Assembly: GCA_018883425.1 (NCBI GenBank)
Contig: VFQY01000001.1
Span: 432-64,431, forward strand
Source: Candidatus Omnitrophota bacterium
Lineage (GTDB): Bacteria > Omnitrophota > Omnitrophia > Omnitrophales > Aquincolibacteriaceae
DNA length: 64,000 bases
Direction of reading: 5' to 3'
Shown here: in pieces, positions 14,336 through 41,284 of the stretch
Layout of the letters: each line of letters opens with the position of its first letter
Numbering within the stretch: position 1 is the stretch's first letter
Translations under genes and position numbers: made by a program
Notes under the pieces: model-generated
What the model saw: only the letters and a program-made list of their open reading frames with translations
What the model was told of the DNA's origin: nothing
Databases searched by the model: none

Positions 14336-14450
14336 CGAGTGCGCCTCTCTCCTTCTTTTTAGTGCGCGAAAATAGACATTTCTTAATGACGAGCCTTGAT
14401 CAAACTGTCCCCCCCTGAAAATGACCGTAAATCCCGCGAGGCGAAAAATA

Positions 14451-14510: not shown

Positions 14511-14622
14511 CACTCCTTTCCGGAAAGCTTAGGCTTTCATCGACTCAGGGAACAGCCGCCTTGATTTCCGGGCGTTTCGCAAGCTGTCACGATTCAGAAG
14601 ATCCCCGGAGGACCTAAACACT

Positions 14623-19447: not shown

Positions 19448-20799
19448 AGGACAACCGCTCTTTCGGTTACTTGCCCCTCGGAGCTTCTCTGCGTCCTGAG
19501 AAATCGGCGGATATTTGCAGAGGTTACGATCATGCCCGCAACAAGACCGTACTTGAGCCAGGGCATTGTCCCGGTCAAACCCGCGAGCGACCAGAGATGA
19601 ATCGACATTGCGATAAAACTGGCATAAAGGGCTGCTGCCCAATAGTGCTTGCGGCGAGTCATGAAAACCGCTGCGCTATACCCCCTCCCTAAGAACAGCA
19701 CAAGAAGTGTGAGGTAGGGAAGGCCCCCAGCCAACCCTGTTTCGGCAAAAAATTGCATGTAAGCGTTATGCGAGGATTTGCTCTCAAACTTCTGCGATGA
19801 AAAATGACGAAGCGCCCTCGGCATTTCAAGCTCAACTCTCGTGAAGCGAAAGCGGCCGGGTCCACACCCCCACAAGGGATGTTTCTGCATAATCTTTATC
19901 GCTTTCTGGATCATCACCTTTCTAATTTGATACGACTTGTCCTGATCCAGGCTTTCGAGAGTCGAAAATCGCGAGACAAAACGCTCACGAACCTCCTGCG
20001 GCGCAGCTCTTGAAAAAATCCCCATCAAACCGCCAAGCAGCACAAGAAATAGAGCTGCTTTGAAGATGCCCCTTCCCTTTTTGGGATCTGCTGCGGCGCA
20101 AATCCATCCAAACACCGCAAACGATGCCGCAATAGCAATCCAGGAGGACCGGGAACCATTCATGAGAACGACAGCCAAAACAATGCCTAGCCCTAAAATC
20201 GCGAGCATCCTTTTTCGCGCTTCAGCTTGCATGAGAAATCCCGCGATGAAAACCGTATTGGCCGAAAAAATAAACGCGTACTCATTTTGAGTCATAAACT
20301 TCAATTCCATCCAAGCCCCGTAACTTCCGTATCGGATAGCCTCATAGAGCCTCACGAGTGCCAGCAGGAAAACGCTGAGCGAAAAAACTCCAGCCGTCAG
20401 CGGAAAAATCCAGGGTCGAAGAGACGCGAACAAAAGCGTCGTCACAAAAACAATCAGCCAGTAGGTGCAGCGGATGAGAACGATCATTTCGGTTTTTCCA
20501 AAGGAACTGCCGCTGCTGGATAACCCATTCACGAGAGCGCTGAAAAAGAAACCAGCACCCAGCCAGAGCGCCAGCCTGATCCATCCGCCCGCACGGATAT
20601 CTACCCGGCGGCGAGCCTTCAAAAAAACGTCCATAAAAAGGAGATAAAAAAGAATGGCTGACAGCGAGAGCCCTACAAAAGGAAGCTCAAGGAAAGGCAG
20701 CACCGTGTAGCCTGCGGCCAAAGCAAAAACTTTGGCTGACCAAGGAATTTTTTTAGACTCTCTAAAACAAGGGTCGAAACCCGGGGCAGCCCTCATCAC
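19444..20799 (-). CDS. O-antigen ligase / Wzy_C-family polytopic membrane protein (Wzy polymerase, WaaL ligase or PglL-type O-oligosaccharyltransferase; cannot distinguish)
   Basis: About 10-12 hydrophobic helices with a large loop containing ESKSSHNAYMQFFAETGL (Wzy_C-like H...N/AY motif region). Confidence 0.7.
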   Translation of the reverse strand: MMRAAPGFDPCFRESKKIPWSAKVFALAAGYTVLPFLELPFVGLSLSAILFYLLFMDVFLKARRRVDIRAGGWIRLALWLGAGFFFSALVNGLSSSGSSFGKTEMIVLIRCTYWLIVFVTTLLFASLRPWIFPLTAGVFSLSVFLLALVRLYEAIRYGSYGAWMELKFMTQNEYAFIFSANTVFIAGFLMQAEARKRMLAILGLGIVLAVVLMNGSRSSWIAIAASFAVFGWICAAADPKKGRGIFKAALFLVLLGGLMGIFSRAAPQEVRERFVSRFSTLESLDQDKSYQIRKVMIQKAIKIMQKHPLWGCGPGRFRFTRVELEMPRALRHFSSQKFESKSSHNAYMQFFAETGLAGGLPYLTLLVLFLGRGYSAAVFMTRRKHYWAAALYASFIAMSIHLWSLAGLTGTMPWLKYGLVAGMIVTSANIRRFLRTQRSSEGQVTERAVVL

Positions 20800-21914
20800 T
20801 CGGCCCCTCCGAGATATTCACTCTGCAGGTTTTTCCGCCGGGTCAAGTCCCGCTGAGCATCCCCTCGCCAATCCACCCTGGGAGCCAGCAGCCAGGACCT
20901 TGGGGGCACAATCAGCCCGAGGACCGCACCTGCTCCGTATCCCAGAAACCCTTGGAGTCTCGCTAGACTGGGCGCAGCGAACAACCTGGTGAGGAAAACG
21001 AGTGCTCCTCCGGCATAAGATTTCAGAAGGTTGAGGCGGTCACAAAATGAAGGCCGCCGATCCCCGCGGTAATGATCATTGAGAAAACGGCGGCTGTAGG
21101 CAGACGCGAAGCCGAAGCGGAAGGGTCTGATGGGATATGCGCAGGGAAGAGCTTCGCCAGGATGTTCAATGCCCTCGCTTTCCAGCAAAAGCAACTTCCC
21201 GGCTCGTCCCGCCCGGCGGGAAAGATAAGTATCCTCTCCTAAACCGCAACCGCGAGCAGTTAATGCGAACAGGTCATCCGAATAGCAACTCTCATTCAAG
21301 ACGCTCATGCGGTAAAACATCACACCGCCTCGAAGCCACTGAGTCTCATAGATCATTTGACCAGGAATTTGACGAAGAGGCAAACGATGCCCAGCAGCGC
21401 TAAGCCCGCCGGGCGAGGCTGTGCGCGAAGACTGGAAAAGTTTTAGGAAAACCGAATTCGTCCAAGGGGTTTTTGTTTTTTTTTGATCCGACAAAACATC
21501 GTGACCGCTCAGCTTTCCGCTATCCGTGAACTTGAGGGAAACAGTAAGTCCCGCTGCGCATGTTTTTGTTTTCATGATCCCCAGCATGTCTCGAACAATC
21601 GCGGAATTTCGGAGCCGAAGATCGTCATCGAAATAAAGCAAATATTCTACGGACATTCGTGCAGCGTTCAGCCAGGCCAAGTACCTCTGATACGCAAGAT
21701 TAGCATGCTGAGAGGGCTGATAGACCGCTTGTTTTTGGGTCCTCATCGCCCAATCTTCCAAGAGCCTGGAGATCTCCGGATCTTCGGGGGCGCCGTCGAC
21801 AACAATCAAGACATCCGGCACCGTCTCCTGAAGAGCAAGATCATCCAGAAGTTTTTCCAAAAGACGCGGTCTTTTATACGTACAGACAGCCGCAGCAAAA
21901 CGGACTTCAGACAT
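20796..21914 (-). CDS. GT2-family glycosyltransferase with about 150-aa hydrophobic C-terminal extension
   Basis: AAAVCTYKRPRLLEKLLDDLALQ...VLIVVDGAPED...YFDDD GT-A motifs. Start at MSEVRF (21914) preferred over the track start 21971. Confidence 0.7.
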   Translation of the reverse strand: MSEVRFAAAVCTYKRPRLLEKLLDDLALQETVPDVLIVVDGAPEDPEISRLLEDWAMRTQKQAVYQPSQHANLAYQRYLAWLNAARMSVEYLLYFDDDLRLRNSAIVRDMLGIMKTKTCAAGLTVSLKFTDSGKLSGHDVLSDQKKTKTPWTNSVFLKLFQSSRTASPGGLSAAGHRLPLRQIPGQMIYETQWLRGGVMFYRMSVLNESCYSDDLFALTARGCGLGEDTYLSRRAGRAGKLLLLESEGIEHPGEALPCAYPIRPFRFGFASAYSRRFLNDHYRGDRRPSFCDRLNLLKSYAGGALVFLTRLFAAPSLARLQGFLGYGAGAVLGLIVPPRSWLLAPRVDWRGDAQRDLTRRKNLQSEYLGGAE

Positions 21915-22974
21915 TCGCTCCCCCTTCGGATGCTGTCTTGAGAAGATCTTCGAGGGCGGCCAAAACCGCATCGACCGAGTAAAACTTCACAGCGCGCTCC
22001 CTCCCAGCCCGACCCATCTGAGCGAGCTTATCCCGGTTCTGCACAGCCCAGGTCAGACTCGCTCTCCATTGATCAAAAGTGCTGCAGTGAAATCCCGTTT
22101 TGTCATGATTTACAATTTCTCGATTCACGCCGACAGGCGAGACCAGCGCCGGAATTCCGCACGCCATGTATTGGACCGCTTTCAAACCGCACTTTCCTCT
22201 CTCAAAAGGACTGTCTTCGAGCGGCATCAAACCCACGTCAAAATCTTGAATGAGCTCAACCTCACTGCGTTCCGTCCAGCGGCGGTAAATGACTCTGCGC
22301 CCCCCCCAGTTGACCCTCGGATCCTTTTCAAGGACCAGCACGAATTCGGCTTCCTGATCAACCTCAGTGAGGCACTCAGAAATCTTTTTTAAAAGCGGTG
22401 CAGCCAGTGAGAAAGAACCGACTGATCCTGACCAGCCCGCACGAAAGGGTCCAGCCCGCCTCTCTTTTTGAGGCACCCAGCGCAGCGTATCCGCCACCGT
22501 GGGGATCACCGCGCATCGTCGGGGCTGAAAGGCCCGCGCAAAGGCAGCCAGCGTATCATTTCCCGCAGCGGCGCCTTGAGATAACTTCAAGATGCCTTCG
22601 ATTTTTTCCCTGCGGGGGCCGAGATGAATGGCATCGTCAAAATCAAAAACGATCTTGGCTTTCCGGGAATACATCCAAGGCTCGAGAAAACGCACTTTCA
22701 CTTCCGGAACAAGATCTCGGTTCATCATGACCACATCAAATTTTTCAAGATCACGGATGCGCCACACGGCATTGATCAGACGGCCGGCAGCACCCAGACC
22801 CGAGTGCATCCGGCGAAACACACCGTCAGGAAGTGCACTCTTCCATTGCCTTGAGGGCACCGAGGCTCGCACAGCCACCTCATGACCTCGAGCTCTCAAG
22901 GGCTCGGCAAATTGAAGGATGCGGAAGCGCGAGGCAGGGTCGGTCATCGAACCGCTGAGCATAAGAATTCTCAC
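21907..22974 (-). CDS. GT4-family glycosyltransferase
   Basis: MRILMLSGSMTDPASRFRILQFAEPLRARGHEV N-terminal GT4 domain; C-terminal GLKAVQYMACGIPALVSPVGVNREIV. Confidence 0.75.
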   Translation of the reverse strand: MRILMLSGSMTDPASRFRILQFAEPLRARGHEVAVRASVPSRQWKSALPDGVFRRMHSGLGAAGRLINAVWRIRDLEKFDVVMMNRDLVPEVKVRFLEPWMYSRKAKIVFDFDDAIHLGPRREKIEGILKLSQGAAAGNDTLAAFARAFQPRRCAVIPTVADTLRWVPQKERRAGPFRAGWSGSVGSFSLAAPLLKKISECLTEVDQEAEFVLVLEKDPRVNWGGRRVIYRRWTERSEVELIQDFDVGLMPLEDSPFERGKCGLKAVQYMACGIPALVSPVGVNREIVNHDKTGFHCSTFDQWRASLTWAVQNRDKLAQMGRAGRERAVKFYSVDAVLAALEDLLKTASEGGANV

Positions 22975-24215
22975 GCTTCATTCCCTCTCTTCGAACGAAA
23001 TTCTCTTACCCAATAATTTCCAAGAAGTTCCATCCAGTAACCGAGGCTTCGCGACCGCAGCCTCCGTTTCAGCATCTCATTCTCTTTGACGGCCGCGGCA
23101 AGACGTGATTGAAGCCTGGTCGGGTTTGCTTCAGAAAAAATTTGATGGCCTGGGTAGAGCGCTGCAAGCAGAGGCAGGTAACTGACGAAAATCGGCGTCG
23201 AATCCAGCATTGCCGGCGGCAGAGCTACAGACTGACGCTTGCGCAGCTGGTCCCGGAACTCTTCGACCATCTTCAGGATCAAATCAAAAACACGGCTTGC
23301 CGAGGGCTCAGTGTTTTGAAGAACATCGTTCAGGATGTCATTCTGATAAGCCATTTTGGCAGCTCCGGGATTCAAAAGGTCCGCAACGGCAGTACTCAAA
23401 TGACTCTTCGCTGAGATCTGCCAAACGGCCGGAAAAAAACGGGGTGAATTTGTGTAATCTAGAAAAGCGACCGGCCGGGAAAGCATCATGCTTTCAATCG
23501 CGGCCGTGCTCGGAGTCGTTATCACTGCATCCGCGGACTCGATCAAACGGATGAGCCCCGCTTGGCCCTTATCGGTTTCATGATTCTCGACGCCGAGAAT
23601 GCCGGGAATATCCCGCGTTAATCTCCAAAGGACTTGAATCTCAGGCTTGCTGGACAGAAACTCCTTAAGATCCCGAAGGGATTGCAAAACGAGATTTCTC
23701 TGTTTGTCATCGAACCATGGTTTCTGGGCGGTCATGACAAGAAGCGTTTTCCCCGGCCTGGCCGGCGGCCTCCAGGTTTGACTCTGCAGAATCCGATCAA
23801 GTCTCGGCATACCTGTGACCTCAACCTTGGCGGCATTTCCCCATGCGGCCATCTGACGGGCGCTCTGATGACCCAGACAGCCTATTTTGTCCGCCATGAC
23901 GGGCTGATGCTGGGGCGGTCCGCCCCCGCTGCCGAAAAGTGGGTTTTCATACTGGCACCGCCATTCAAGAATTCCGTCCTGAAGAGCCAGCGAAGGGATG
24001 TTTTGATGACGGGCCTCTTCGATAAACCGCATTTCTTCATGAAGGACTCCGCTGGTAATCAGCACCAAATCAGGTTTGATCTTGGAAAAGACCTCAGCAT
24101 CAAACTCCTTTAGAAAAAAAAATTGTGCCTTCTCTCCAGCCGCCTTGCGGACAGCCTCCGCCTGAGGATCATCTTCACCGCCGACAGCGAGAATTTTCAG
24201 AGGAATAAATTCCAC
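22971..24215 (-). CDS. Hypothetical surface-carbohydrate biosynthesis protein, possibly GT-B-like (KpsS/TagF-like); function uncertain
   Basis: No firm motif. Embedded in the operon with a 4-bp overlap to its neighbour; mixed alpha/beta composition compatible with a GT-B fold. Confidence 0.35.
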   Translation of the reverse strand: MEFIPLKILAVGGEDDPQAEAVRKAAGEKAQFFFLKEFDAEVFSKIKPDLVLITSGVLHEEMRFIEEARHQNIPSLALQDGILEWRCQYENPLFGSGGGPPQHQPVMADKIGCLGHQSARQMAAWGNAAKVEVTGMPRLDRILQSQTWRPPARPGKTLLVMTAQKPWFDDKQRNLVLQSLRDLKEFLSSKPEIQVLWRLTRDIPGILGVENHETDKGQAGLIRLIESADAVITTPSTAAIESMMLSRPVAFLDYTNSPRFFPAVWQISAKSHLSTAVADLLNPGAAKMAYQNDILNDVLQNTEPSASRVFDLILKMVEEFRDQLRKRQSVALPPAMLDSTPIFVSYLPLLAALYPGHQIFSEANPTRLQSRLAAAVKENEMLKRRLRSRSLGYWMELLGNYWVREFRSKRGNEA

Positions 24216-24308
24216 TCAAAGACTCCGGACTTCTCGATTTATTTCCGATTCGAACAGCAAAAAAACCGGCTCATTTGCCTTGCGCCGATGCAGCCATGAT
24301 TTGCGGCT

Positions 24309-25343
24309 TTACCGAGACCCATGATCCGGTCTTTGGACTGCCTGTCCGCCTTCATTCCAGCTCGGGGGCATATTTTTCAAAATTTCAATGTTCTTGAACG
24401 GCCGGCTCTGACGGACGCCGGTCTTTTGGGCCCAAGCCGCCATTTTTTCAATGCCGCGCTCCAACTCCACTGAGCCCTGATATCCAAACAGGCTTTTGGC
24501 CTTGTGATGTTGCGCAAAAGCATGCTGAACTTCCAGGCGGGGTGGTAAATAGTTCACTTGCGGGTTCTTTCCAAAAACCTGCCCAATCACTCTCGCCAAC
24601 TCCTTGATGCTGTAGGGCTGATCCGCTCCGATATTGATCACCTGGCCTCGAGCCTCCGGTATTCCCGGGCTTTCGGCAATGTGCGGGGCAACGTCATCAA
24701 TGTAACTGAAAGCCCGGGTCTGGGAGCCGTCTCCAAAAACAGTCAGCGGTTTATCCTGCATGATCTGATTCATAAAAATACCGATCACATTCCGGTAACG
24801 GTCACCAAGATTCTGGTGCTCTCCATAAACGTTGTGCGGCCGGAAAATAATGTAAGGCAAACCGAACATCTGATGAGCTGCCCGGAGATCCAGCTCTACG
24901 GCAAACTTGGCAATGCCGTAAGGATCCTCCGGACGGGGATTCGTCTCTTCGCTGACGGGAGGCGGCGCGCTCCCGTAAACAGCAATTGAGGAAGTAAAAA
25001 CAAAACACTTCACCTCATGCCTGACCGAAGCATTGATCAGATTGATGCTTCCAAGAACGTTGTTTGTATAATTAAAATGCCTTATGAAATGCGAAAGTCC
25101 TTCCGCCGCGTACGCTGCAAGGTGATACACGTAATCAAATCTGTACTCTTGAAAAAGCCGCTCAACGAGCTCCCCATCGGTCACGCTGCCCTGGACAAAA
25201 ACAGCTCCAGCAGGAACCTGATCCCGGAATCCTCCGCTCAAGTCGTCCAGAACCACAACCTGATGCCCCTCATGCTCGATACAATGCCTCGCCACATGGG
25301 ATCCGATGAAACCTGCCCCTCCCGTCACCAACGATCTTGCCAC
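24309..25343 (-). CDS. NAD-dependent nucleotide-sugar epimerase/dehydratase (SDR family)
   Basis: VTGGAGFIGSHV Rossmann motif; catalytic S...YGIAK (YxxxK). Confidence 0.85.
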   Translation of the reverse strand: MARSLVTGGAGFIGSHVARHCIEHEGHQVVVLDDLSGGFRDQVPAGAVFVQGSVTDGELVERLFQEYRFDYVYHLAAYAAEGLSHFIRHFNYTNNVLGSINLINASVRHEVKCFVFTSSIAVYGSAPPPVSEETNPRPEDPYGIAKFAVELDLRAAHQMFGLPYIIFRPHNVYGEHQNLGDRYRNVIGIFMNQIMQDKPLTVFGDGSQTRAFSYIDDVAPHIAESPGIPEARGQVINIGADQPYSIKELARVIGQVFGKNPQVNYLPPRLEVQHAFAQHHKAKSLFGYQGSVELERGIEKMAAWAQKTGVRQSRPFKNIEILKNMPPSWNEGGQAVQRPDHGSR

Positions 25344-25361
25344 AGCTCCCCCTGCAGTATC

Positions 25362-27200
25362 TTAGGCGTCCGCAAAACTTTGTTCAGTCCAGTAACGGTA
25401 AAAAAAATCTTTCTTACTGAGAAGCTCTCCGAAAGCGCCTTGTTCAACAACCCGGCCTTTCTCCAGGACAATAATCTTATCGGCTTTCTTTACCGTAGAA
25501 AACCGATGGGCGATAACGATCAGAGTTTTTTCTGCAGCCGCCTCTTCAATCGCCTCCTGTATTTTCTTTTCGGTAACTGAATCGAGTGCGCTCGTGGCTT
25601 CATCAAAAATCAGAATAGGCGAACCCCGAAGAATGGCTCTCGCAATGGCCAACCGCTGTCTCTCTCCTCCGGATAAACGCACGCCCTTGTCGCCGATAAC
25701 GGTCTCAAGACCCTGAGGCAGGGTTTGAATGAGATCTTCAAGCCTGGATTTCAGGATCACGTTTGCCAAATCTTTCTCAGAAACACTTTTATCGGCTCCA
25801 TAAAGGATGTTGCTTCGTATCGTGTCATTAAAAAGAAGCGTCTCTTGGCTGACGATAGCGAAACATTTTCTCAAAGCATCCAGCGTCAAAGTCCGGATAT
25901 CCCGGCCGTCCATCAGAATACTTCCCGCCTGGGGCTCATACAGCCTGAGGAGCAGATTCACAACGCTTGTTTTTCCGGCGCCTGAACTTCCGACAAGGGC
26001 GGTCATGCGGCCTTTTTCGAACTTCAGATCAATCCCGGCTAAAGCCTTTTTCCCGCCTTTGTAGGTCAACTCGACCCCCCGCAGCTCAAGGGCATGTTGA
26101 AAGTCAACGGCATCAACGGATCCCTGTACTTCACCCCATGCTGACTCTTGGGACAGGATTTCTTCAACCTCGCTCATAGGTCCCATCATTCTGGAAATAT
26201 GGGCCCGGATGTGTCCCAAGGCACCGAAATTGCTCAACGCTCTTCGAAGCGTAAAGAAAAAAATCAGCAATTTTGCAATATCCTGCTCGGCCTTCGTCTG
26301 AAGAAACAGCGCCGCCAGACACATCATGACAAGAAGGGCAAACAGCGCTCCCAGCTCGTAGATCACAGGAACAAGCTCCTGCTTCTTTTCCATGCTGAAT
26401 CGAGCCCTGGCAGATTGAAGACTGCCCGCTTCAAATCTTTTCTCCTCTGCGTCCTCAGTTCTAAAAGCTTTGACCAGCCCAAGATTCATGAGCACATTGG
26501 ATGTCCGGCTGACCCAATCTGCGTTCATCTTAGAGTAAACCTTCGAGCGTTCCTTGATCCTCCGTATCAAACCCGAAATTGTCCTCATAAAGAGCGGCGC
26601 CATGAAAAGCGTCAAAAGCGTCAGGGGCAGCGAAATATAAATCATGACGGCCAGGTAAGGAAAAATCAGCAGACCCGAACAAAGGCTTCGGAATAACGCT
26701 TTCATCGAAACAGCCGTCTCTAGTACCGCCGATGAGATCGTATTGAGGAGGGTGCCCTGGTTTAGCTCATCAAGGCGGCTTTTCGAAGAATGAATAATAC
26801 GGCTGAACAATTTAAGGCGAATGCGGTGGATCGAATCGCAGAGAATGCGGTCCGCAAGGACCAGGGATGCATATTGGAGTAAATTTTTCAACACCGCAGT
26901 AAGAAACACTGCTGACACGAGGAAAATCATCAGCACACTCTGCGGTGTCTTATCTATCGAAAAGCCGAAAAGCACCTTCGCCGCACTGAAAACACGGCTC
27001 TCGAACAGAAAGCCGAAATCGCTCTCGAGAATGCCCTTCAGGAGCGGCATGAGGAGCCCCAAAGTAACCCCCTCGAACAAGACGGCTCCCGCAGAAAGCA
27101 CACAAGCGGCGAAAAACTGATGCCCTCTCAATTCAGCAATTCTGCACAACCGCTGCAGCAAGCGCCATTCAAGAAGCGGCAGCCTGCCTCCTTTATTCAT
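25362..27200 (-). CDS. ABC exporter, fused permease plus ATPase (MsbA/PglK/Wzk-like; candidate lipid-linked oligosaccharide flippase)
   Basis: N-terminal 6-TM domain. Walker A GSSGAGKTS, signature LSGGERQRLAIARA, Walker B ILIFDEATSALD. Confidence 0.85.
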   Translation of the reverse strand: MNKGGRLPLLEWRLLQRLCRIAELRGHQFFAACVLSAGAVLFEGVTLGLLMPLLKGILESDFGFLFESRVFSAAKVLFGFSIDKTPQSVLMIFLVSAVFLTAVLKNLLQYASLVLADRILCDSIHRIRLKLFSRIIHSSKSRLDELNQGTLLNTISSAVLETAVSMKALFRSLCSGLLIFPYLAVMIYISLPLTLLTLFMAPLFMRTISGLIRRIKERSKVYSKMNADWVSRTSNVLMNLGLVKAFRTEDAEEKRFEAGSLQSARARFSMEKKQELVPVIYELGALFALLVMMCLAALFLQTKAEQDIAKLLIFFFTLRRALSNFGALGHIRAHISRMMGPMSEVEEILSQESAWGEVQGSVDAVDFQHALELRGVELTYKGGKKALAGIDLKFEKGRMTALVGSSGAGKTSVVNLLLRLYEPQAGSILMDGRDIRTLTLDALRKCFAIVSQETLLFNDTIRSNILYGADKSVSEKDLANVILKSRLEDLIQTLPQGLETVIGDKGVRLSGGERQRLAIARAILRGSPILIFDEATSALDSVTEKKIQEAIEEAAAEKTLIVIAHRFSTVKKADKIIVLEKGRVVEQGAFGELLSKKDFFYRYWTEQSFADA

Positions 27201-27316
27201 ACGCTATCCTTGCGCAGGTTTTATGCCCTGCTGTTAAGCGGCAGGCGGAAGAAGTCCTTGTTATGACTGTGTCCCCCGCCCGCTCTCTGACCTTTTCTGA
27301 TGCGGTGAATGAAAAG

Positions 27317-27523
27317 CTATTTGCTCATCCGGCTCATGAGCCAGGCATCCAGGACATCTTTCTTGAACCGCCATTGACCGCCGATTTTTGTCGCAGGGAT
27401 CTCTTGTTTTTTGAGGAGTCGGTAGATTGTGACCAGATGAAACCCTAAATACTTCGCAGCTTCCTTTGGAGTCATGATTTGAGTTCTCTCGGGACGTTTC
27501 GGTGTATTCTTAGATTCTTCCAT
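27317..27523 (-). CDS. Small HTH DNA-binding protein, excisionase-family (HTH_17/MerR-like). Copy A, first gene of the main glycan operon
   Basis: MTPKEAAKYLGFHLVTIYRLLKKQEIPATKIGGQWRFKKDVLDAWL matches the excisionase-family HTH. Its paralog is at 30425-30682. Confidence 0.75.
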   Translation of the reverse strand: MEESKNTPKRPERTQIMTPKEAAKYLGFHLVTIYRLLKKQEIPATKIGGQWRFKKDVLDAWLMSRMSK

Positions 27524-27577
27524 GAATGGACCCCTTGATTTACTGTTTTTGCTTGTTTTAGTTATAATCTATTTCAA

Positions 27578-27606
27578 ATATTAATGTCATAATTATAAAT
27601 AGTCAA
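27578..27606 (-). promoter_or_regulatory. Putative sigma70 promoter of HTH copy A (minus strand TTGACT-N17-TAATAT)
   Basis: Read on the minus strand: TTGACT at 27606-27601, 17-nt spacer, TAATAT at 27583-27578. About 55 nt upstream of ATG 27523 with an AAGGGG RBS. Confidence 0.4.
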
Positions 27607-27609
27607 CTC

Positions 27610-27633
27610 TTGCTATTTATTTTTATATAGCAA
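27610..27633. promoter_or_regulatory. Perfect inverted repeat TTGCTAT-N10-ATAGCAA immediately upstream of the -35 of the HTH-A promoter (candidate operator/activator site). The spacer carries the shared TATTTATTTTTA motif
   Basis: 7-bp arms at 27610-27616 and 27627-27633, read directly from the sequence. Confidence 0.45.
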
Positions 27634-27681
27634 AAACGCCTTATTTCCTTTTCCTGCCAACATTTCCTAATAATCAATAAA

Positions 27682-27713
27682 ATCCTTTTCTCGACCGCTT
27701 TTAGTGCTATAAT
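27682..27713 (+). promoter_or_regulatory. Putative extended -10 promoter (TGcTATAAT) for the secreted repeat-protein gene
   Basis: TGCTATAAT at 27705-27713, about 75 nt upstream of ATG 27790 (RBS AAAAGGAG). Confidence 0.4.
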
Positions 27714-27789
27714 ACGGCCTTTGTTTTTATCACCTAAGCATCCTCGATCAGTTTTCTACCTAGATTCTGGAACCAAAAGGAGTGTTGAA

Positions 27790-28353
27790 ATGAAACTTCG
27801 TTCTGCCTTACTCGCTGTCATGCTTTGCATGACGCTCACGACCCCCCGCCTCCTGGCATCTGAGGATGTCTGGGATCTTGCTGAATCCGAGCAATATGGT
27901 AAGAAAAGCGCCGGCATGGTCGGCCGCGGTCTGATCAATGCCGCAACAAGCCCCGTTGACCTTGTCGTTCAGACTGTAGAAAGCACTCAGGAAGGACCTC
28001 CTTTTTTTGGAACCCTCACGGGGCTCTCTTCAGGCCTTGGCTGCACGGCGCTGCGTGCCTCTTCAGGCATTATGGATGTGGCGACTTTCTGGGTCCCTGG
28101 ATTTAACGGGTTCAAGGTGTCCCGCTCCTACTCGAACTGTCTGGAAGCCGAATACACGAAAGCCCGCTACACACCGGTTCGTGAACCGCAAACCCAAGTG
28201 ATTGAGCAGCCTCAGGTCGTGGTTGTTCAAGAGCCTGCCAAACCCGTTGTGGTGCAGGCTCCGAACCCTATGGACTATGTGAAGAAAGGCGATGCGCCTG
28301 ATCCGATGGCGTACGTTAAGAAGGGCTCCAACGAGAATTCTTACGTAAAATAG
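27790..28353 (+). CDS. Secreted hypothetical protein with signal peptide and C-terminal Pro/Val/Gln-rich region ending in YVKKG repeats
   Basis: MKLRSALLAVMLCMTLTTPRLLASEDV signal peptide. PQTQVIEQPQVVVVQEPAKPVVVQAPNPMDYVKKGDAPDPMAYVKKGSNENSYVK. RBS AAAAGGAGTG. Track ORF 27721 includes an upstream in-frame extension. Confidence 0.6.
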   Translation: MKLRSALLAVMLCMTLTTPRLLASEDVWDLAESEQYGKKSAGMVGRGLINAATSPVDLVVQTVESTQEGPPFFGTLTGLSSGLGCTALRASSGIMDVATFWVPGFNGFKVSRSYSNCLEAEYTKARYTPVREPQTQVIEQPQVVVVQEPAKPVVVQAPNPMDYVKKGDAPDPMAYVKKGSNENSYVK

Positions 28354-28380
28354 TTCCTGGCAAGTTTTTTTCAAAAAAAT

Positions 28381-28412
28381 AAAGCCGCTTGGACCTCATC
28401 CAAGCGGCTTTA
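28381..28412. terminator. Bidirectional Rho-independent terminator (AAAGCCGCTTGG-loop-CCAAGCGGCTTT flanked by A-run and T-run)
   Basis: 12-bp perfect stem followed by TATTTTTG on plus and preceded by TTTTTTTCAAAAAAAT. Sits between convergent genes. Confidence 0.7.
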
Positions 28413-28427
28413 TTTTTGCCTGCAAAC

Positions 28428-29207
28428 TTAAACTTTAACGATATACGCCCTATCCGGAAATTTAGGAACAATCGGTTTTTCAGCTTTATCCAGAAAGAAT
28501 TCATCTACAGCCTTTCGGGCTCCGGGCCATGCGGGGTCATCGTATTCATCAAAAACCATCACCGCTCCAGGATTCATTCTCGGATAAAAAAACTCCAGGC
28601 AAATCTGATAGGATTCGTACAAATCACAATCGAGAAAGACAAAGGCAAACCGCTCACTCGGCAAATGCCGGAGCGATTCCTCAAAAAAACCGGGGATCAC
28701 CTGGACGTCCTTCTCCAAGCCGAAGGCCCTGAGTTTACTCCTCACAAGGGCGATCGAGGTATTGCCGAATCCGCCGATGCTTTTCCTTGAGGACTTCTCT
28801 CCGGATTGATCAATTGCACTCATCACTGAATCATCAAAACCCGCAAAAGAATCAAACGCATAAATTCTTTTTGAGGGCATGATTTTTTTTGCCTGATAGG
28901 CAATAGGTATCAAAGAAGCGCCCTGGTAAACTCCGCATTCGGCGGCTGCTCCAGGCACGTTTCCCACGCGCCTCAGTTTTTCTAGAATGTGCGCCATTCT
29001 CCCCGGTTGCCCTGAAGGAAAAGGGACGTCGATTCCGCAAAGCTCACCGAACCAGCAAGGCCAATCGTGAACATCCTGAACACCCAAACAACGCAGAATC
29101 AATCGGCCCGCCCGCCAAAAAAAAGGGGCGAGCCCTGATTTACGGTAAATATATCGAACCTTGGGAGGGTTCATCTGGGGGGCACTATCGGGTTTTAAAG
29201 AAATCAT
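28428..29207 (-). CDS. TylF/MycF/NovP-family SAM-dependent sugar O-methyltransferase
   Basis: ECGVYQGASL, DSFAGF, FLDCDLYESY and VFDEYDDPAWPG motifs characteristic of macrocin-O-methyltransferase-like enzymes. Confidence 0.75.
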   Translation of the reverse strand: MISLKPDSAPQMNPPKVRYIYRKSGLAPFFWRAGRLILRCLGVQDVHDWPCWFGELCGIDVPFPSGQPGRMAHILEKLRRVGNVPGAAAECGVYQGASLIPIAYQAKKIMPSKRIYAFDSFAGFDDSVMSAIDQSGEKSSRKSIGGFGNTSIALVRSKLRAFGLEKDVQVIPGFFEESLRHLPSERFAFVFLDCDLYESYQICLEFFYPRMNPGAVMVFDEYDDPAWPGARKAVDEFFLDKAEKPIVPKFPDRAYIVKV

Positions 29208-30315
29208 CTAGCACGGAGCAGACATATTCCTGATCCGTTCTGCTAAGCTCAGGGTAGATGGGGAGAGCTAAGGTTTCACGGCTCGCTTTCTCGCTTTCCG
29301 GAAAGTCTCCCTCGCGATAGCCCAGAAACGCAAAACACTCCTGTAGATGAAGGGGCCTAGGGTAATACACTTCGGTGCCCACGCCGCGTTCGGCCAGATA
29401 GGCCATAAGATCATCGCGCCGCTGAACCCGAATCACATACTGGTTGTAAACATGCCTGCCGGCTTTCTTCCTCGGCGGGATAACGCGCCCAGAATCAGCC
29501 AGACCGCTCTGCTTGAAAAATTGGTCGTAGAACGCTGCATTGCTTTGACGCTGCCGGGTCCAGGCGTCTAAATATTTCAGTTTCACAATCAAAACGGCCG
29601 CTTGCAGCGCATCAAGCCTGAAGTTGCCGCCGACGGTTTTATAGTAATACTTTTTTTCGGATCCGTGATTGCGCAGAACTTTGATTTTCTTGATGATCGA
29701 TTCATCATGACTCACGACCATTCCGCCGTCACCGAAGCAGCCCAAATTCTTTGAAGGAAAAAACGACAAGCATCCATAGAGCCCCATCGATCCGGCGCGG
29801 CGCCCTTCATCCTCAGCTCCAATAGCCTGAGCAGCGTCTTCGATCACAGAAATTTTGAAGCGTTCGGCCAACTCCAGCACAGGATCCATGTCCGCGGTCT
29901 GCCCGTAAAGATGAACGGGCATCAGCGCCTTGGTTTTCGGGGTGATCCGGCTCTCGAGCTGCAAAGTATTCCAATTGTAGGTTTCCGGATCAATGTCGGC
30001 AAAAACCGGTCTTGCCCCTAAACGCACAATGGATCCTGCAGTCGCAAAAAACGTGTAGGGCGTGGTCAAGACTTCATCCCCGGGACCGATCCCTTCACTC
30101 ATGAGCGCCGCCAGCAGAGCATCGGTTCCCGATGACACTCCGCATCCGTAAGCCACGCCGCAATAGCGCGCTAAAGCGGATTCACACTCCTCAACACGAG
30201 CACCGAGAATGAATTGCTGCTGCTCAAAAAGCTCTGCCATCACCCGGTCGATCTCGGGTTTGATGGTTTGGTATTGAGCCTTGAGATCTAGAAGAGGAAC
30301 CTTCATTAAATTCAC
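29185..30315 (-). CDS. DegT/DnrJ/EryC1-family PLP-dependent sugar aminotransferase (second copy, WecE/PseC-like)
   Basis: LLDLKAQYQ, GVSSGTDAL, and FFPSKNLGCFGDGG lysine region. Confidence 0.85.
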   Translation of the reverse strand: MNLMKVPLLDLKAQYQTIKPEIDRVMAELFEQQQFILGARVEECESALARYCGVAYGCGVSSGTDALLAALMSEGIGPGDEVLTTPYTFFATAGSIVRLGARPVFADIDPETYNWNTLQLESRITPKTKALMPVHLYGQTADMDPVLELAERFKISVIEDAAQAIGAEDEGRRAGSMGLYGCLSFFPSKNLGCFGDGGMVVSHDESIIKKIKVLRNHGSEKKYYYKTVGGNFRLDALQAAVLIVKLKYLDAWTRQRQSNAAFYDQFFKQSGLADSGRVIPPRKKAGRHVYNQYVIRVQRRDDLMAYLAERGVGTEVYYPRPLHLQECFAFLGYREGDFPESEKASRETLALPIYPELSRTDQEYVCSVLDDFFKTR

Positions 30316-30424
30316 TCAGTTTGAAAGGTTAGCGGTTTAATAGGAGCGGCTATTCTACTCGGAAACTGCGGGAAAGTCTTGCGGAGGAATGTTACGGCTG
30401 GTAATCCGTTCAACCCAGTCTGCT

Positions 30425-30682
30425 TTACTGATTCATCCGGTTCATGAGCCAGGCATCCAGGACATCTTTCTTAAAACGCCATTGTCCGCCGATTTTCGTA
30501 GCGGGAATCTCCTGCTTCTTGAGAAGACGGTAGATGGTCACGAGGTGAAACCCGAGATATTTCGCAGCTTCCTTAGGCGTCATGATCTGGGTGCGCTGCC
30601 GCTGCTGCTGAGGCTGCTGTGAATCAGATTTATTCGTTTCCATAGTCTCTCGCCTGTTTAGAGTGGCTGGTTTTTTCCCCAA
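30425..30682 (-). CDS. Small HTH DNA-binding protein, excisionase-family (HTH_17). Copy B, first gene of the HTH-DegT-TylF sub-operon
   Basis: 50-aa core identical to copy A (TQIMTPKEAAKYLGFHLVTIYRLLKKQEIPATKIGGQWRFKKDVLDAWLM); distinct Gln-rich N-terminus. Confidence 0.75.
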   Translation of the reverse strand: MGKKPATLNRRETMETNKSDSQQPQQQRQRTQIMTPKEAAKYLGFHLVTIYRLLKKQEIPATKIGGQWRFKKDVLDAWLMNRMNQ

Positions 30683-30702: not shown

Positions 30703-30731
30703 ATCCTAGGCTTTTGACTATATCTTGTCAA
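30703..30731 (-). promoter_or_regulatory. Putative sigma70 promoter of HTH copy B (minus strand TTGACA-N17-TAGGAT). The -35 is part of inverted repeat TTGAC-N8-GTCAA (30714-30731)
   Basis: Read on the minus strand. The shared TATTTATTTTTA motif lies at about 30738-30750, just upstream. Confidence 0.4.
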
Positions 30732-30793
30732 GAATTGTTATTTATTTTTAGTCCGGAGCTCTTTTTAGTTGAATCCTGCAGAAATTTCCAATG

Positions 30794-31360
30794 CTAGACC
30801 TTGGAGGGGAATTCCCCCGCCAGAACATCTTGAACCGAAAAAATAGGTGAATAATTGTATCCTGCTAAAACCTGATCGGCGCCTTCGGCCCGATCCACAA
30901 GACACACAACCTTCACAACCTTAGCTTTGAGCTTTTCAACTTCGTGAATGGCCTTAAGAACAGACCCGCCCGTCGTGATCACATCCTCAACCATGACCAC
31001 CCGATCCCCCTCTTCAATCGCCGGCCCTTCAATCATCCTCTGCATGCCGTGATCCTTCGACTCTTTTCGGACAATAAAAGCTTTGAGGGGGTGACCGGAC
31101 TGCGAGCTGAGAAGGGAAACCGCCGCAGCAATCGGATCGGCGCCGAGCGTCGGACCGCCTACCGCAGAAGCGCCTGTTCCGTGCAGCATATTCAAAATAA
31201 CTTTCCCAGTGAGAAAGAGACCCTGGGGATCGAGCGTTACTTGCTTGCCGTCGATGTAAAAATTCGAGGTTTTTCCCGAAGCAAGAGTCCGGCTGCCTTT
31301 CATCAAGGCTTTCTGTTTCAAGAGGGCAAGCAGTTCTTCTTTCAACTTAGCTTCATCCAT
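30794..31360 (-). CDS. pyrE: Orotate phosphoribosyltransferase
   Basis: PRPP-binding motif VVMVEDVITTGGS. Start at MDEAKLKEELL (RBS AAGGAGACG) rather than the track start, which reads through the G/C repeat as MPPPARAR. Confidence 0.8.
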   Translation of the reverse strand: MDEAKLKEELLALLKQKALMKGSRTLASGKTSNFYIDGKQVTLDPQGLFLTGKVILNMLHGTGASAVGGPTLGADPIAAAVSLLSSQSGHPLKAFIVRKESKDHGMQRMIEGPAIEEGDRVVMVEDVITTGGSVLKAIHEVEKLKAKVVKVVCLVDRAEGADQVLAGYNYSPIFSVQDVLAGEFPSKV

Positions 31361-31427
31361 AGAGCATCGTCTCCTTAAGTGAGATTCCCATGATACGTTC
31401 AAGCGATTCAAATTGCAATGATCAGGC

Positions 31428-31452
31428 CCGCGCGCGCGCGCGGGGGGGGGCA
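31428..31452. repeat. Simple-sequence repeat: (CG)7 followed directly by a G9 homopolymer, in the pyrE/trmJ intergenic region
   Basis: Sequence cccgcgcgcgcgcgcgggggggggc read directly; coordinates plus or minus 1. Confidence 0.6.
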
Positions 31453-32172
31453 TCAGGAATTTTTGGGATATTTCTGAACGGCCCTTTCGACGATACGGCG
31501 CGACAAGCCTTTAATCATTTCCCCTTCACTCCTAAGAAGGCCCTGGCGCTTGAGAAGCGCGCGAAAAGTCGAATCAATTCTCCGGGCAATTGCGGGTTTG
31601 TATTCAAGAGACTCCACCGCCCTCATGAAGCTGGCCATCACAGACTCAAATTCCTCTTTTGAAACCTGATCCCACTTTTCATACCCCTCAGCTTTGACCG
31701 TCCCTTGAAAGAGCGAGAAACAGACAATCATCACGGCCTGCGCCAGGTTAATCGAGGGATATTCGTCACCTGTGGGAATCGTGGTAAACCAGTCACAGAC
31801 ATGAAGGTCTTCGTTCGAAAGCCCCTTGGATTCCTTCCCGAAAATGATCGCTGCTGTTTTTTCGCGGCTGACGTCACGAAGTTTCCGAACCGCTGCATGG
31901 TATTCCAGGAACGCCCGCCGCCGTCCGCCCTGGCGGCGCGTTGTCCCTATAACCCAAACCGTGTCGCGGACGGCTGACTTCAAATCGTCATAGATTTTGG
32001 CCTGGTCTAAAAAGGGATCTGCTCCCACCGCCAGTTTGCGGGCTTTCTCACGCCAGCCTCCCGGCGGCTTTACAAGCCTGAGATCGTTCAAACCCATATT
32101 TTTCATGGCTCGGGCGACAGCCCCGATATTGTCGGGAATTTCAGGTTCGACGAGAACAATCGCGACAGACAA
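31453..32172 (-). CDS. trmJ: SpoU/TrmH-class RNA 2'-O-methyltransferase, TrmJ-like
   Basis: IVLVEPEIPDNIGAVARAMKNMGL, IFGKESKGLSNEDL, SINLAQAVMIV. Confidence 0.7.
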   Translation of the reverse strand: MSVAIVLVEPEIPDNIGAVARAMKNMGLNDLRLVKPPGGWREKARKLAVGADPFLDQAKIYDDLKSAVRDTVWVIGTTRRQGGRRRAFLEYHAAVRKLRDVSREKTAAIIFGKESKGLSNEDLHVCDWFTTIPTGDEYPSINLAQAVMIVCFSLFQGTVKAEGYEKWDQVSKEEFESVMASFMRAVESLEYKPAIARRIDSTFRALLKRQGLLRSEGEMIKGLSRRIVERAVQKYPKNS

Positions 32173-41182: not shown

Positions 41183-41284
41183 AGGGTCCTCCGAATCAAG
41201 GGTGTTCAAAAAAATCAGGTTTGAATGCGTGATTGCGAATGTTAACGGTTTTAGAAATCGATGTCAACGGATCGAAAATCTAAC

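What the first reader, a model, noticed from the sequence alone, without database searches (positions are those of the whole stretch)
27317..30682. Two paralogous excisionase-family HTH (HTH_17) mini-proteins, each the first gene of a glycan sub-operon, with identical 50-aa cores but diverged synonymous sites
The 68-aa (27317-27523) and 85-aa (30425-30682) proteins share an identical stretch TQIMTPKEAAKYLGFHLVTIYRLLKKQEIPATKIGGQWRFKKDVLDAWLM. Their N-termini are unrelated (one Gln-rich). At the DNA level the gene 3' ends are nearly identical, but the middle of the core differs at roughly one position in four, all synonymous. This indicates an old duplication under strong purifying selection rather than a recent repeat. 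Both sit directly upstream of biosynthetic genes with no terminator in between: HTH-A before the ABC exporter and 18 downstream genes, HTH-B before DegT and TylF. This suggests dedicated, possibly autoregulatory, transcription factors for the glycan locus. No integrase or recombinase is nearby, so they do not appear to be working prophage excisionases.
Basis: seen in the sequence. Interest (0 to 1): 0.7.

Follow-up and report, generated by a model that had tools for sequence, protein, structure and literature searches.

The report
Ultra-conserved small Omnitrophota DNA-binding protein pair
The two mini-genes are real, ancient duplicates of a tiny DNA-binding protein that is almost invariant across the uncultured phylum Omnitrophota and sits at a fixed chromosomal spot at the head of a variable surface-sugar gene island, so it is most likely a chromosomal gene regulator and not a phage or mobile-element excisionase.

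Summary
Two minus-strand genes (27317-27523, 68 aa; 30425-30643, 72 aa from the ATG) share an identical 50-aa core. Their synonymous sites are near saturation and there are no amino-acid changes. Both match HTH_17/TIGR01764.

The identity is a family property, not a local one. In 80 related loci, almost all Omnitrophota MAGs, the core is a median 92% identical to the window's. The neighbouring pyrE is 72% and the SpoU methylase 49%.

The ancestral copy (A) holds a fixed slot: SpoU, pyrE, a divergent TIGR04073-like secreted protein, the HTH, often a UpxY-type NusG paralog, a variable glycan island, then GCV_T/MutY. Copy B is an old tandem duplicate that kept its promoter. It heads a DegT(-TylF) cassette that ends at a perfect bidirectional terminator.

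Both promoters sit in a conserved block (TAnCAA-N3-TTGAC-N4-5-TATA) found nowhere else in the window or in 0.9 Mb of related loci. This suggests autoregulation.

The predicted fold is a stand-alone MerR-like winged helix, closest to RdfS and BldC. I found no recombinase, att repeat, tRNA or viral relative.

About 34 genomes keep the gene although the glycan island is missing. "Dedicated glycan regulator" is therefore only partly supported. I rate it a new member of a known kind, of moderate interest.

The parts
27317..27523 (-). HTH-A: 68-aa stand-alone winged-helix protein. It is the ancestral copy in the fixed chromosomal slot.
   Evidence: ORF. PF12728 at 66.3 bits and TIGR01764 at 64 bits. 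AF2 model with mean pLDDT 81.7 and a beta-alpha-alpha-beta-beta-alpha fold. Orthologues occupy the same synteny in 80 loci.
27578..27625 (-). HTH-A promoter and operator-like block: TAGCAA (27615-27610), -35 TTGACT (27606-27601), conserved spacer TATTTATAAT, -10 TAATAT (27583-27578), upstream A-tract.
   Evidence: Promoter scan. TADCAANNNTTGAC has 2 hits in the window against 0.03 expected. Repeat D2 is shared with copy B. The block is conserved across about 60 loci although synonymous sites are saturated.
27524..27577 (-). HTH-A 5' leader, A-rich and unstructured, ending in the AAGGGG ribosome-binding site.
   Evidence: MFE is 0 kcal/mol and all 200 shuffles fold at least as well. Leader sequences aligned.
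27790..28353 (+). Divergent partner gene: secreted 187-aa TIGR04073-like protein (ORF open from TTG 27721).
   Evidence: TIGR04073 at 46.8 bits, just under the cut-off of 50. No Pfam hit. A divergent homologue lies within 900 nt upstream of 49 of 79 HTH copies. The source record calls it at 187 aa.
27241..27283 (-). Strong GC-rich hairpin without a U-tail, between HTH-A and the ABC exporter.
   Evidence: Spacer MFE -41.5 kcal/mol, z = -4.26, no shuffle of 200 as stable. Not conserved in relatives.
8415..27200 (-). Variable glycan island downstream of HTH-A: ABC exporter, epimerase, glycosyltransferases, Wzy_C, acetyltransferases, AMP-binding enzyme, UDP-GlcNAc 2-epimerase, DegT, and a Bac_transf + Polysacc_synt_2 fusion.
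   Evidence: Pfam. The island lies exactly between HTH-A and GCV_T/MutY. It is absent from that position in about 34 related genomes.
30425..30643 (-). HTH-B: 72-aa paralogue (ORF open to TTG 30682), an old tandem duplicate.
   Evidence: The source record calls it at 72 aa. B-type orthologues have the same tails and promoter in L001, L019, L017 and L084-L087.
30703..30750 (-). HTH-B promoter and operator-like block: TAACAA (30740-30735), -35 TTGACA (30731-30726), spacer with GTCAA forming an inverted repeat with the -35 element, -10 TAGGAT (30708-30703).
   Evidence: Best promoter match in the region, 10 of 12. Motif hit, repeat D2, B-type consensus.
28428..30315 (-). DegT aminotransferase (29185-30315) and TylF-like methyltransferase (28428-29207), the cassette headed by HTH-B.
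   Evidence: PF01041 E = 2.6e-114 and PF05711 E = 3.5e-26. The HTH-B + DegT unit recurs in other genomes.
28375..28417 (.). Perfect 19-nt inverted repeat flanked by A and T runs. It is a bidirectional terminator closing both the HTH-B/DegT/TylF unit and the TIGR04073-like gene.
   Evidence: I3, 100% complementary with a 5-nt loop.
30794..32172 (-). Conserved upstream flank: pyrE (30794-31360) and SpoU-type methyltransferase (31453-32172).
   Evidence: TIGR00336 at 139.5 bits and PF00588. Synteny holds in most loci.
6369..8436 (+). Conserved downstream flank: MutY-like glycosylase (6369-7442) and GCV_T folate-binding protein (7429-8436), convergent with the island.
   Evidence: PF00730 + PF14815 and PF01571. 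The same genes directly follow the HTH in genomes that lack the island.

Best explanation
HTH-A and HTH-B are paralogues of an Omnitrophota-specific, almost invariant, roughly 70-aa stand-alone MerR-like winged-helix protein. It belongs to the HTH_17/TIGR01764 family and has a BldC/RdfS/Xis-type fold.

**Shown**
- They are chromosomal genes, not part of a mobile element.
- Copy A is the orthologue of a gene fixed in the slot SpoU, pyrE, (divergent TIGR04073-like gene), HTH. That slot is the 5' boundary of a variable surface-glycan island, which is bounded on its far side by GCV_T/MutY.
- In many relatives the HTH is followed, sometimes with overlapping or near-touching coding sequences, by a UpxY-type NusG antiterminator.
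- Copy B is an old duplicate that took its promoter with it. It heads a DegT(-TylF) amino-sugar cassette that ends at a bidirectional terminator.

**Inferred**
- The protein binds the conserved block around its own sigma-70-type promoter (TAnCAA-N3-TTGAC-N4-5-TATA, overlapping the -35 element and the spacer). It therefore autoregulates, most simply as a repressor that competes with RNA polymerase.
- From the same intergenic region it controls the divergent TIGR04073-like envelope gene.
- Where the downstream genes are co-transcribed, it sets expression of the UpxY/glycan operon.
- By analogy with its closest structural relatives, several monomers probably assemble side by side on the DNA.

Because the two paralogues have identical DNA-reading cores and similar promoter blocks, each can probably act on both promoters. 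That would couple the DegT cassette to the main island.
For: - **Family and fold.** PF12728 and TIGR01764 score well above cut-off. The AF2 model is a winged helix with pLDDT of about 90 over residues 20-60. The top PDB folds are RdfS, BldC, Pukovnik Xis, the RacA DNA-binding domain and the SoxR N-terminus.
- **Conservation.** 43 of 50 core positions are invariant in 68 sequences while synonymous sites vary freely. Median identity to the window is 92%, against 72% for pyrE and 49% for SpoU in the same loci.
- **Synteny.**
- **UpxY link.** The neighbour scores NF033644 at 113 bits against a cut-off of 100. It follows the HTH in 27 of 80 loci, with spacings of -4 to 26 nt in divergent clades.
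- **TIGR04073-like partner.** Present divergently for 49 of 79 copies.
- **Promoter block.** Conserved across clades and in both paralogue types (D2). All 59 occurrences of TA[GAT]CAA-N3-TTGA[CT] in about 0.89 Mb of loci lie at HTH promoters. The window has 2 hits against 0.03 expected.
- **Direct repeats.** TAGCAA-like hexamers in one orientation cluster at about -195, -100 and -30 from the start codon: 110 forward against 14 reverse.
- **Not mobile.** No recombinase, tRNA or att repeat, and no viral relative.
Against: - No binding data exist. The conserved block could be the site of another factor, or simply an unusually constrained strong promoter.
- The -195 hexamer cluster may be only the -35 element of the divergent gene read on the other strand.
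- Within the window and the loci, no copy of the block lies upstream of the glycan genes, UpxY or any other gene. The only cis target suggested by sequence is therefore the gene's own promoter.
- About 34 genomes keep the HTH without an adjacent island, so the glycan link is not obligatory.
- The window has no UpxY gene at all.
- A strong hairpin separates HTH-A from the ABC exporter, so co-transcription is uncertain.
- Conservation higher than that of housekeeping neighbours is more than a local regulator usually shows.
Confidence: 0.55

Rival explanations
1. It is a global or architectural regulator. The protein would be a BldC-like pleiotropic factor or nucleoid-associated protein that binds many AT-rich sites genome-wide. 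Its position next to the glycan island would then be historical rather than functional.
For: - The core is more conserved than pyrE or the SpoU methylase in the same loci: 92% against 72% and 49%. 43 of 50 positions are invariant.
- The gene, its promoter and its sequence are retained in about 34 genomes without an adjacent island.
- Signals of high expression are present: a consensus -35 element, an A-tract upstream, a strong RBS (AAGGAG in most loci) and an unstructured leader.
- BldC, one of the closest folds, is a pleiotropic regulator that binds variable numbers of AT-rich direct repeats (PMC5859096).
Against: - The specific conserved block occurs only at its own promoters in 0.89 Mb of related loci and in the 64-kb window.
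- The strong positional linkage to UpxY and glycan genes, including overlapping coding sequences in divergent clades, argues for a local functional tie.
- No whole genome could be scanned for sites.
Confidence: 0.25
2. It is a promoter-loaded partner of processive antitermination. The HTH would bind within the promoter, between -35 and -10 as Q or AlpA binding elements do. It would help RNA polymerase, or the UpxY-like NusG paralogue, read through the long glycan operon.
For: - Conserved sequence lies inside the promoter spacer, directly after the -35 element.
- The HTH is the immediate upstream neighbour of a UpxY-family antiterminator in 27 of 80 loci.
- The island is about 19 kb long, and the genome encodes Rho.
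Against: - P. aeruginosa AlpA and the Q proteins need a large N-terminal ring-forming segment that enters the RNA exit channel (PMC9371919). This protein has only a 13-17-aa disordered tail.
- The promoter block is best conserved in genomes where the HTH is monocistronic and followed by a convergent gene.
- UpxY homologues from other lineages lack such an HTH: only 5 of 65 loci carry one.
- The window has no UpxY gene.
Confidence: 0.05
3. It is a recombination directionality factor (excisionase) or another mobile-element or defence HTH, for example MAD1 of the MADS system.
For: - The family names PF12728/TIGR01764 are "excisionase family".
- The top fold hit is the RdfS excisionase.
- There is sub-threshold similarity to MAD1: 54 bits against a cut-off of 80, and PADLOC mad1 at E = 1e-8.
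Against: - No integrase, recombinase or transposase was found among the window ORFs.
- There is no tRNA and no att-like repeat.
- The chromosomal slot is fixed between housekeeping genes across a phylum.
- There is essentially no relative in viral contigs.
- No other mad genes are present.
- GC content is continuous with the surroundings.
Confidence: 0.03

Closest known systems
BldC of Streptomyces (68-aa MerR-like regulator; PDB 6AMA/6AMK)
   Same: Both are about 68 aa. Both are stand-alone MerR-type winged helices with no coiled coil or effector domain. BldC is among the top fold matches (TM 0.59-0.74). Both are chromosomal, non-mobile and highly conserved within their phylum. Candidate AT-rich direct repeats lie around this protein's target promoter, and BldC binds 9-bp AATTxxxxC direct repeats head-to-tail (PMC5859096).
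   Different: No detectable sequence homology. Profile and single-sequence PDB searches did not find BldC. Foldseek identity is about 24%. The phylum and genomic context differ (glycan island and UpxY rather than developmental genes). DNA binding here is untested.
RdfS, Xis and other wHTH recombination directionality factors (PDB 8DGL, 4J2N)
   Same: They share the HTH_17-type fold, and RdfS is the best Foldseek hit. They are small and act by oligomerising on DNA. RdfS also regulates transcription (PMC11963761, abstract seen).
   Different: There is no partner recombinase, no att sites and no mobile element. The locus is fixed and vertically inherited.
Bacteroides UpxY/UpxZ control of capsule loci, and RfaH/ops control of O-antigen loci
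   Same: A regulatory module sits at the 5' edge of a variable surface-polysaccharide locus flanked by conserved housekeeping genes. Relatives carry a genuine UpxY-family gene right after the HTH (NF033644 above cut-off).
   Different: Those systems are not described with an HTH_17 partner; none is mentioned in the NusG review I searched. UpxZ is not an HTH protein (my own knowledge). The window itself lacks UpxY. The pairing is restricted to Omnitrophota-like sequences.
Classical MerR-family regulators (SoxR, CadR, NmlR)
   Same: The N-terminal winged-helix fold is shared. Binding inside or over the promoter spacer is a MerR hallmark (my own knowledge).
   Different: This protein has no dimerisation coiled coil and no effector domain. 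The promoter spacer is a normal 17 bp, not the 19-20 bp typical of MerR targets.

Membership tests
HTH_17 / TIGR01764 'excisionase-family' DNA-binding domain | Profile match above the curated cut-off | tested here: met
   PF12728 scores 66.3 and 65.9 bits against a cut-off of 27. TIGR01764 scores 64 and 63.7 bits against a cut-off of 28.8.
HTH_17 / TIGR01764 'excisionase-family' DNA-binding domain | MerR-like winged-helix fold (beta-alpha-alpha-beta-beta-alpha) | tested here: met
   The AF2 model has helices at 19-26 and 30-38, strands at 45-47 and 50-54, and a helix at 55-67. pLDDT is about 90 in the core.
Recombination directionality factor (working excisionase) | Partner tyrosine or serine recombinase encoded nearby | tested here: not met
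   No recombinase domain was found in the window ORFs scanned or in the Pfam-annotated related contigs.
Recombination directionality factor (working excisionase) | att-like direct repeats, a tRNA target and a mobile-element context | tested here: not met
   No tRNA. No flanking direct repeats apart from the gene and promoter duplication. The housekeeping synteny is fixed. Viral contigs gave 1 weak partial hit.
BldC family | Stand-alone wHTH of about 70 aa without a coiled coil or effector domain | tested here: met
   Length is 68 or 72 aa. BldC chains appear at ranks 2-12 in Foldseek.
BldC family | Sequence homology to BldC | tested here: not met
BldC family | Head-to-tail oligomerisation on AT-rich direct repeats | not testable with these tools
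   The evidence is only suggestive. Same-orientation A-tract + TAGCAA elements lie at about -100 and -30.
Classical MerR family | C-terminal coiled-coil dimerisation helix and effector-binding domain | tested here: not met
   The protein ends 5-6 residues after the wHTH C-terminal helix.
MADS defence system (MAD1 HTH) | Equivalog score above cut-off, with other mad genes adjacent | tested here: not met
   NF047737 scores 54 bits against a cut-off of 80. The neighbours are glycan and housekeeping genes.
Q / AlpA-type promoter-loaded antiterminators | N-terminal ring-forming segment that enters the RNA exit channel | tested here: not met
   Only a 13-17-aa low-confidence tail precedes the wHTH. 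The AlpA architecture is taken from PMC9371919.
UpxY-headed polysaccharide locus | UpxY-family NusG paralogue at the 5' end of the locus | tested here: inconclusive
   Met in 27 of 80 related loci and in L084-L087. Not met in the window, where tblastn found no hit below E = 5.

The most novel reading that the evidence does not exclude
The family is an Omnitrophota-wide master regulator or architectural protein of the cell envelope programme. It would be a functional counterpart of BldC that arose independently at the sequence level. In this reading it evolved together with a UpxY-type antiterminator as a two-gene control module (HTH at the promoter, NusG paralogue on the elongating polymerase) for hypervariable surface glycans. 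Its near-invariance would reflect simultaneous constraints from many DNA sites and a protein partner such as RNA polymerase or UpxY.
Probability: 0.2. Interest if true: 0.7.

Novelty: new member of a known kind. Interest (0 to 1): 0.45.

Why it matters
Omnitrophota are uncultured, mostly ultra-small and possibly host-dependent bacteria (PMC10066038, abstract seen). As far as I could find, nothing is known about their gene regulation.

This family offers a concrete handle. The protein is tiny and almost invariant. Its promoter and candidate operator are conserved and easy to recognise. It occupies a fixed position at the edge of the variable surface-glycan island.

- It marks the glycan island in any Omnitrophota MAG.
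- It is small enough for cell-free expression and DAP-seq on metagenomic DNA.
- It would show whether the HTH_17 "excisionase" label hides a class of chromosomal BldC-like regulators outside Actinobacteria.
- It corrects an annotation ("excisionase family") that would wrongly suggest a prophage.

Tried and rejected
1. **Nucleotide-level element in the identical 3' ends.** Rejected. Synonymous codons vary freely there across 68 family members, and the L001 A and B copies do not share the identity.
2. **RNA element.** Rfam at gathering threshold found nothing in the whole window. The HTH-B spacer and both leaders show no significant structure. Only the A-to-ABC spacer hairpin is significant, and it is not conserved.
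3. **Sequence-level link to solved structures.** None. BLASTP to BldC gave nothing.
4. **Phage or mobile origin.** Viral contigs gave one 22-residue partial hit. No recombinases, tRNA or att repeats were found.
5. **MADS defence (MAD1).** The score is sub-threshold and no partner genes are present.
6. **MamR similarity.** E = 0.001 at 19 bits against a cut-off of 100, which is generic HTH_17 similarity.
7. **Q/AlpA-like mechanism.** The protein lacks the required N-terminal domain.
8. **TAGCAA upstream of the -35 element as the -35 of a divergent promoter.** No conserved -10 lies at the right distance on the other strand (my inspection).
9. **Search for the operator-like block at other genes.** None found in the window or the loci.
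10. **Reciprocal test from the UpxY side.** Most UpxY homologues in metagenomes have no such HTH, so the pairing is lineage-specific and not a general UpxY feature.
11. **Literature.** I found no paper linking Omnitrophota with this protein.
12. **Phylogeny of the A/B split.** Not attempted, because the protein is invariant and synonymous sites are saturated. Only the tails and promoter signatures separate the A and B types.

Full report
**Observation.** Both ORFs are on the minus strand at the stated coordinates. The 50-aa stretch TQIMTPKEAAKYLGFHLVTIYRLLKKQEIPATKIGGQWRFKKDVLDAWLM is identical in both and occurs only twice in the window (tblastn). Within it there are 25 nucleotide differences in 24 codons, all synonymous, and the last 31 nt or so are identical. 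The repeat finder reports a 165-nt repeat at 84% identity (D1). Nei-Gojobori pS is 0.67 overall and 0.80 in codons 1-42, which is saturated, with no amino-acid change. Both proteins match PF12728 (about 66 bits, cut-off 27) and TIGR01764 (64 bits, cut-off 28.8).

The 85-aa reading of copy B starts at a TTG. The ATG at 30643 gives 72 aa (METNKS...). That start is used in the source record and by orthologues. The N-terminal tails are not unrelated: both follow the family pattern of ME-x-x-K, a polar low-complexity stretch, then R/K-x-x-R.

**Origin of the window.** The exact HTH-A protein is encoded on ENA ERZ27292242 contig k141_290328 (173,442 bp), with the same gene order. Named homologues come from Candidatus Omnitrophica/Omnitrophota MAGs.

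**The identity is a family property.**
- A scan of one genome per species found 137 relatives, of which 80 loci were kept. Nearly all are Omnitrophota MAGs.
- The 50-aa core is 88-100% identical to the window's in 68 of the copies and 68-78% in the deepest clades.
- Among those 68 copies, 43 of 50 positions are invariant, while synonymous codons vary freely at every position, including the 3' end.
- In the same loci, median identity to the window is 92% for the HTH core, 72% for pyrE and 49% for the SpoU methylase.
- A profile search found more than 5,600 distinct 90%-identity clusters at E <= 1e-6 in public metagenomes.

The two window copies are therefore identical because the whole family is nearly frozen. 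Nothing special about this genome is needed to explain it. The locally identical 3' ends are not shared by the A and B copies of the close relative L001. That fits chance or a short gene-conversion patch.

**Genomic anatomy.** I called ORFs crudely and clustered them by BLAST across the 80 loci. I then annotated representatives with HMMs. The recurring order is:

RsmB, small secreted proteins, GDPD (opposite strand), SpoU methylase, pyrE, a divergent TIGR04073-like secreted protein, the HTH, then one of three continuations:
- **(i) Glycan locus.** A UpxY-family NusG paralogue (NF033644 at 113 bits, cut-off 100), followed by epimerase, ABC-2 or ABC exporter, and glycosyltransferase genes. This occurs in 27 of 80 loci.
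- **(ii) No island.** Convergent GCV_T and/or MutY directly, followed by inositol monophosphatase, isocitrate dehydrogenase, malate dehydrogenase and aconitase. This occurs in about 34 loci.
- **(iii) Giant protein.** In a marine clade, a protein of about 1,950-1,990 aa.

The window has the same outer flanks. On one side are pyrE at 30794-31360 and SpoU at 31453-32172. On the other are GCV_T at 7429-8436, MutY at 6369-7442, then IMPase, IDH and MDH. The 19-kb glycan island at 8415-27200 therefore lies exactly between HTH-A and GCV_T/MutY. This is a variable island at a fixed chromosomal site, and the HTH marks its 5' edge. A divergent TIGR04073-like gene lies within 900 nt upstream of 49 of 79 HTH copies. 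In the window it is 27790-28353 (46.8 bits, cut-off 50).

**The duplication.** HTH-B plus DegT lies between pyrE and the TIGR04073-like gene in the window and in L001, L017 and L084-L087; L019 also carries a B-type copy next to pyrE. The window and L001 add a TylF-like methyltransferase. B-type copies share their own tail signature (METNK...QQPQ.QR and NRMN at the C-terminus) and their own promoter signature (TTCATAACAAT.CTTGACA). The A/B split therefore predates the divergence of these species. The B unit ends at a perfect 19-nt inverted repeat at 28375-28417, flanked by A and T runs. This is a bidirectional terminator shared with the convergent TIGR04073-like gene (I3).

**Promoters and candidate operator.** Both copies have good sigma-70-type promoters:
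- A: TTGACT-17-TAATAT, 27606-27578.
- B: TTGACA-17-TAGGAT, 30731-30703. This is the best match in the region.

Alignments anchored on the -35 element show conservation beyond what a promoter needs. TA[GAT]CAA lies three bases upstream of the -35 element, and (A)TTTATAG lies immediately downstream in the spacer. This holds in the clade-1, clade-2 and B-type promoters, even though synonymous sites in the adjacent gene are saturated.
- All 59 occurrences of TA[GAT]CAA-N3-TTGA[CT] in about 0.89 Mb of loci lie at HTH promoters.
- The window has 2 hits, both at the HTH promoters, against 0.03 expected.
- A-tract + TAGCAA elements recur in one orientation at about -195, -100 and -30 from the start codon, 110 forward against 14 reverse.
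- The block is also picked up as a direct repeat between the two window promoters (D2, 78%).
- No copy lies upstream of the glycan genes, UpxY or any other gene examined.

The only cis target that the sequence points to is the gene's own promoter region, which it shares with the divergent TIGR04073-like gene.

**Operon status.** No canonical intrinsic terminator lies between either HTH and its downstream gene. In the divergent clades the HTH and UpxY coding sequences are -4 to 26 nt apart, which means an operon. In the window the spacers are 116 nt (A) and 109 nt (B). The A spacer folds into a very stable GC hairpin at 27241-27283 without a U-tail (z = -4.3). That hairpin is not conserved in relatives. 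The B spacer is unstructured. Co-transcription is plausible for B and uncertain for A.

**Fold.** AlphaFold2 on a 28-sequence alignment gives a confident winged helix, beta-alpha-alpha-beta-beta-alpha, preceded by a disordered tail (mean pLDDT 81.7). The best PDB folds are RdfS excisionase, BldC bound to DNA, small-terminase DNA-binding domains, SoxR/NmlR N-termini, RacA and Pukovnik Xis. No solved structure is related at sequence level. BldC, RdfS and Xis work as stand-alone winged helices that oligomerise on DNA. BldC binds 9-bp AT-rich direct repeats head-to-tail (PMC5859096).

**Not an excisionase.** The window ORFs scanned contain no integrase, recombinase or transposase. There is no tRNA and no att-like repeat. 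Base composition is continuous. In 2.9 M viral contigs there is only a 22-residue partial hit. Similarity to the MAD1 defence HTH is sub-threshold and no partner genes are present.

**Mechanism.**
- *Shown:* a chromosomal, vertically inherited, near-invariant winged-helix protein, with a conserved promoter block, at the head of a variable glycan island.
- *Inferred:* it binds that block, which overlaps the -35 element and the spacer, and so autoregulates, most simply by repression. It controls the divergent envelope-protein gene. Where genes are co-transcribed, it sets expression of the UpxY/glycan genes. Because the two paralogues have identical cores and similar blocks, they probably cross-regulate, which would couple the DegT(-TylF) cassette to the main island. 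I give this reading a confidence of 0.55.

**Rivals.**
- *Global or architectural role.* This is supported by conservation above that of housekeeping neighbours and by retention of the gene in the roughly 34 genomes where the island is absent. Confidence 0.25.
- *Q/AlpA-like loading role with UpxY.* This is attractive because of the gene's position. It is unlikely because the protein lacks the ring-forming N-terminal domain (PMC9371919). Also, UpxY homologues elsewhere lack such an HTH: only 5 of 65 loci carry one.
- *Mobile-element or defence role.* Contradicted by the evidence above.

**Verdict.** Two points need correcting. The conservation is phylum-wide, not locus-specific. And the protein is not strictly tied to the glycan locus. 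This is an uncharacterised subfamily of a known kind, the stand-alone MerR-like/HTH_17 regulators. Its context is new: a fixed slot, a TIGR04073-like partner and a UpxY neighbour. I found no literature on it. Interest is moderate.

Noticed in passing
window 27241-27283 (-): A very stable GC-rich hairpin without a U-tail lies in the 116-nt spacer between HTH-A and the ABC exporter (spacer MFE -41.5 kcal/mol, z = -4.3). It could be an attenuator, a processing site or an mRNA stabiliser. It is not conserved in L001, L002 or the UpxY-type loci.
   Followed up: partly
window 28375-28417: A perfect 19-nt inverted repeat (AAAAATAAAGCCGCTTGGA / TCCAAGCGGCTTTATTTTT) lies between the convergent TIGR04073-like gene and the TylF-like gene. 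It looks like a textbook bidirectional terminator.
   Followed up: partly
L071, L072, L075, L079, L080 (about 6,200 onwards in each): In a marine or SAG clade, the HTH is followed within 6-115 nt by a giant ORF of about 1,950-1,990 aa with a signal peptide and repetitive Ig-like segments. Omnitrophota are noted for very long proteins (title of bioRxiv 10.64898/2026.06.07.730766, seen).
   Followed up: no
window 33380-33754 (-), 40718-41209 (-); clusters c5 and c7 in the loci: Two more small secreted proteins are conserved in synteny across many loci but hit no Pfam or NCBIfam family. One carries an RG..N......E motif reminiscent of TIGR04073. Many island-less genomes also carry a second TIGR04073-like paralogue just beyond MutY.
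   Followed up: partly
L166 1-944: This metagenome contig has HTH, then UpxY-like, then a second HTH (75% core identity) in a row, so the NusG paralogue is sandwiched between two family members.
   Followed up: no
L001 about 6,260-6,320 and L002 about 330-390 (spacer between HTH-A and the ABC exporter): A conserved stretch of about 45 nt (AGGAGGGCRTATGCGGGTMAGCCGTRAGTCCRCCGTGGGGGCAT) is shared by the two closest relatives but absent from the window. It could be a tiny ORF with its own RBS or an RNA element.
   Followed up: no
window 8415-10856 (-): The last gene of the island is an 813-aa fusion of an initiating sugar transferase (Bac_transf), a CoA-binding domain and a Polysacc_synt_2 dehydratase (PglF/CapD-like).
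   Followed up: no
window 61180-62568 (-) and 45392-46171 (-): The window encodes Rho and a group-3/4-like sigma factor with regions 2, 3 and 4. Rho is relevant because NusG paralogues such as UpxY and RfaH counter Rho within long glycan operons (my own knowledge).
   Followed up: no
L021 about 5,900 and L044 about 1,680: In two loci the block upstream of the HTH reads TATCAA-CTA-TTGCTA, a near-palindrome of the TAGCAA half-site, in place of TAGCAA-N3-TTGACA. The site may therefore be read as an inverted repeat T-n-n-CAA-N3-TTG-n-n-A and not as direct repeats.
   Followed up: partly
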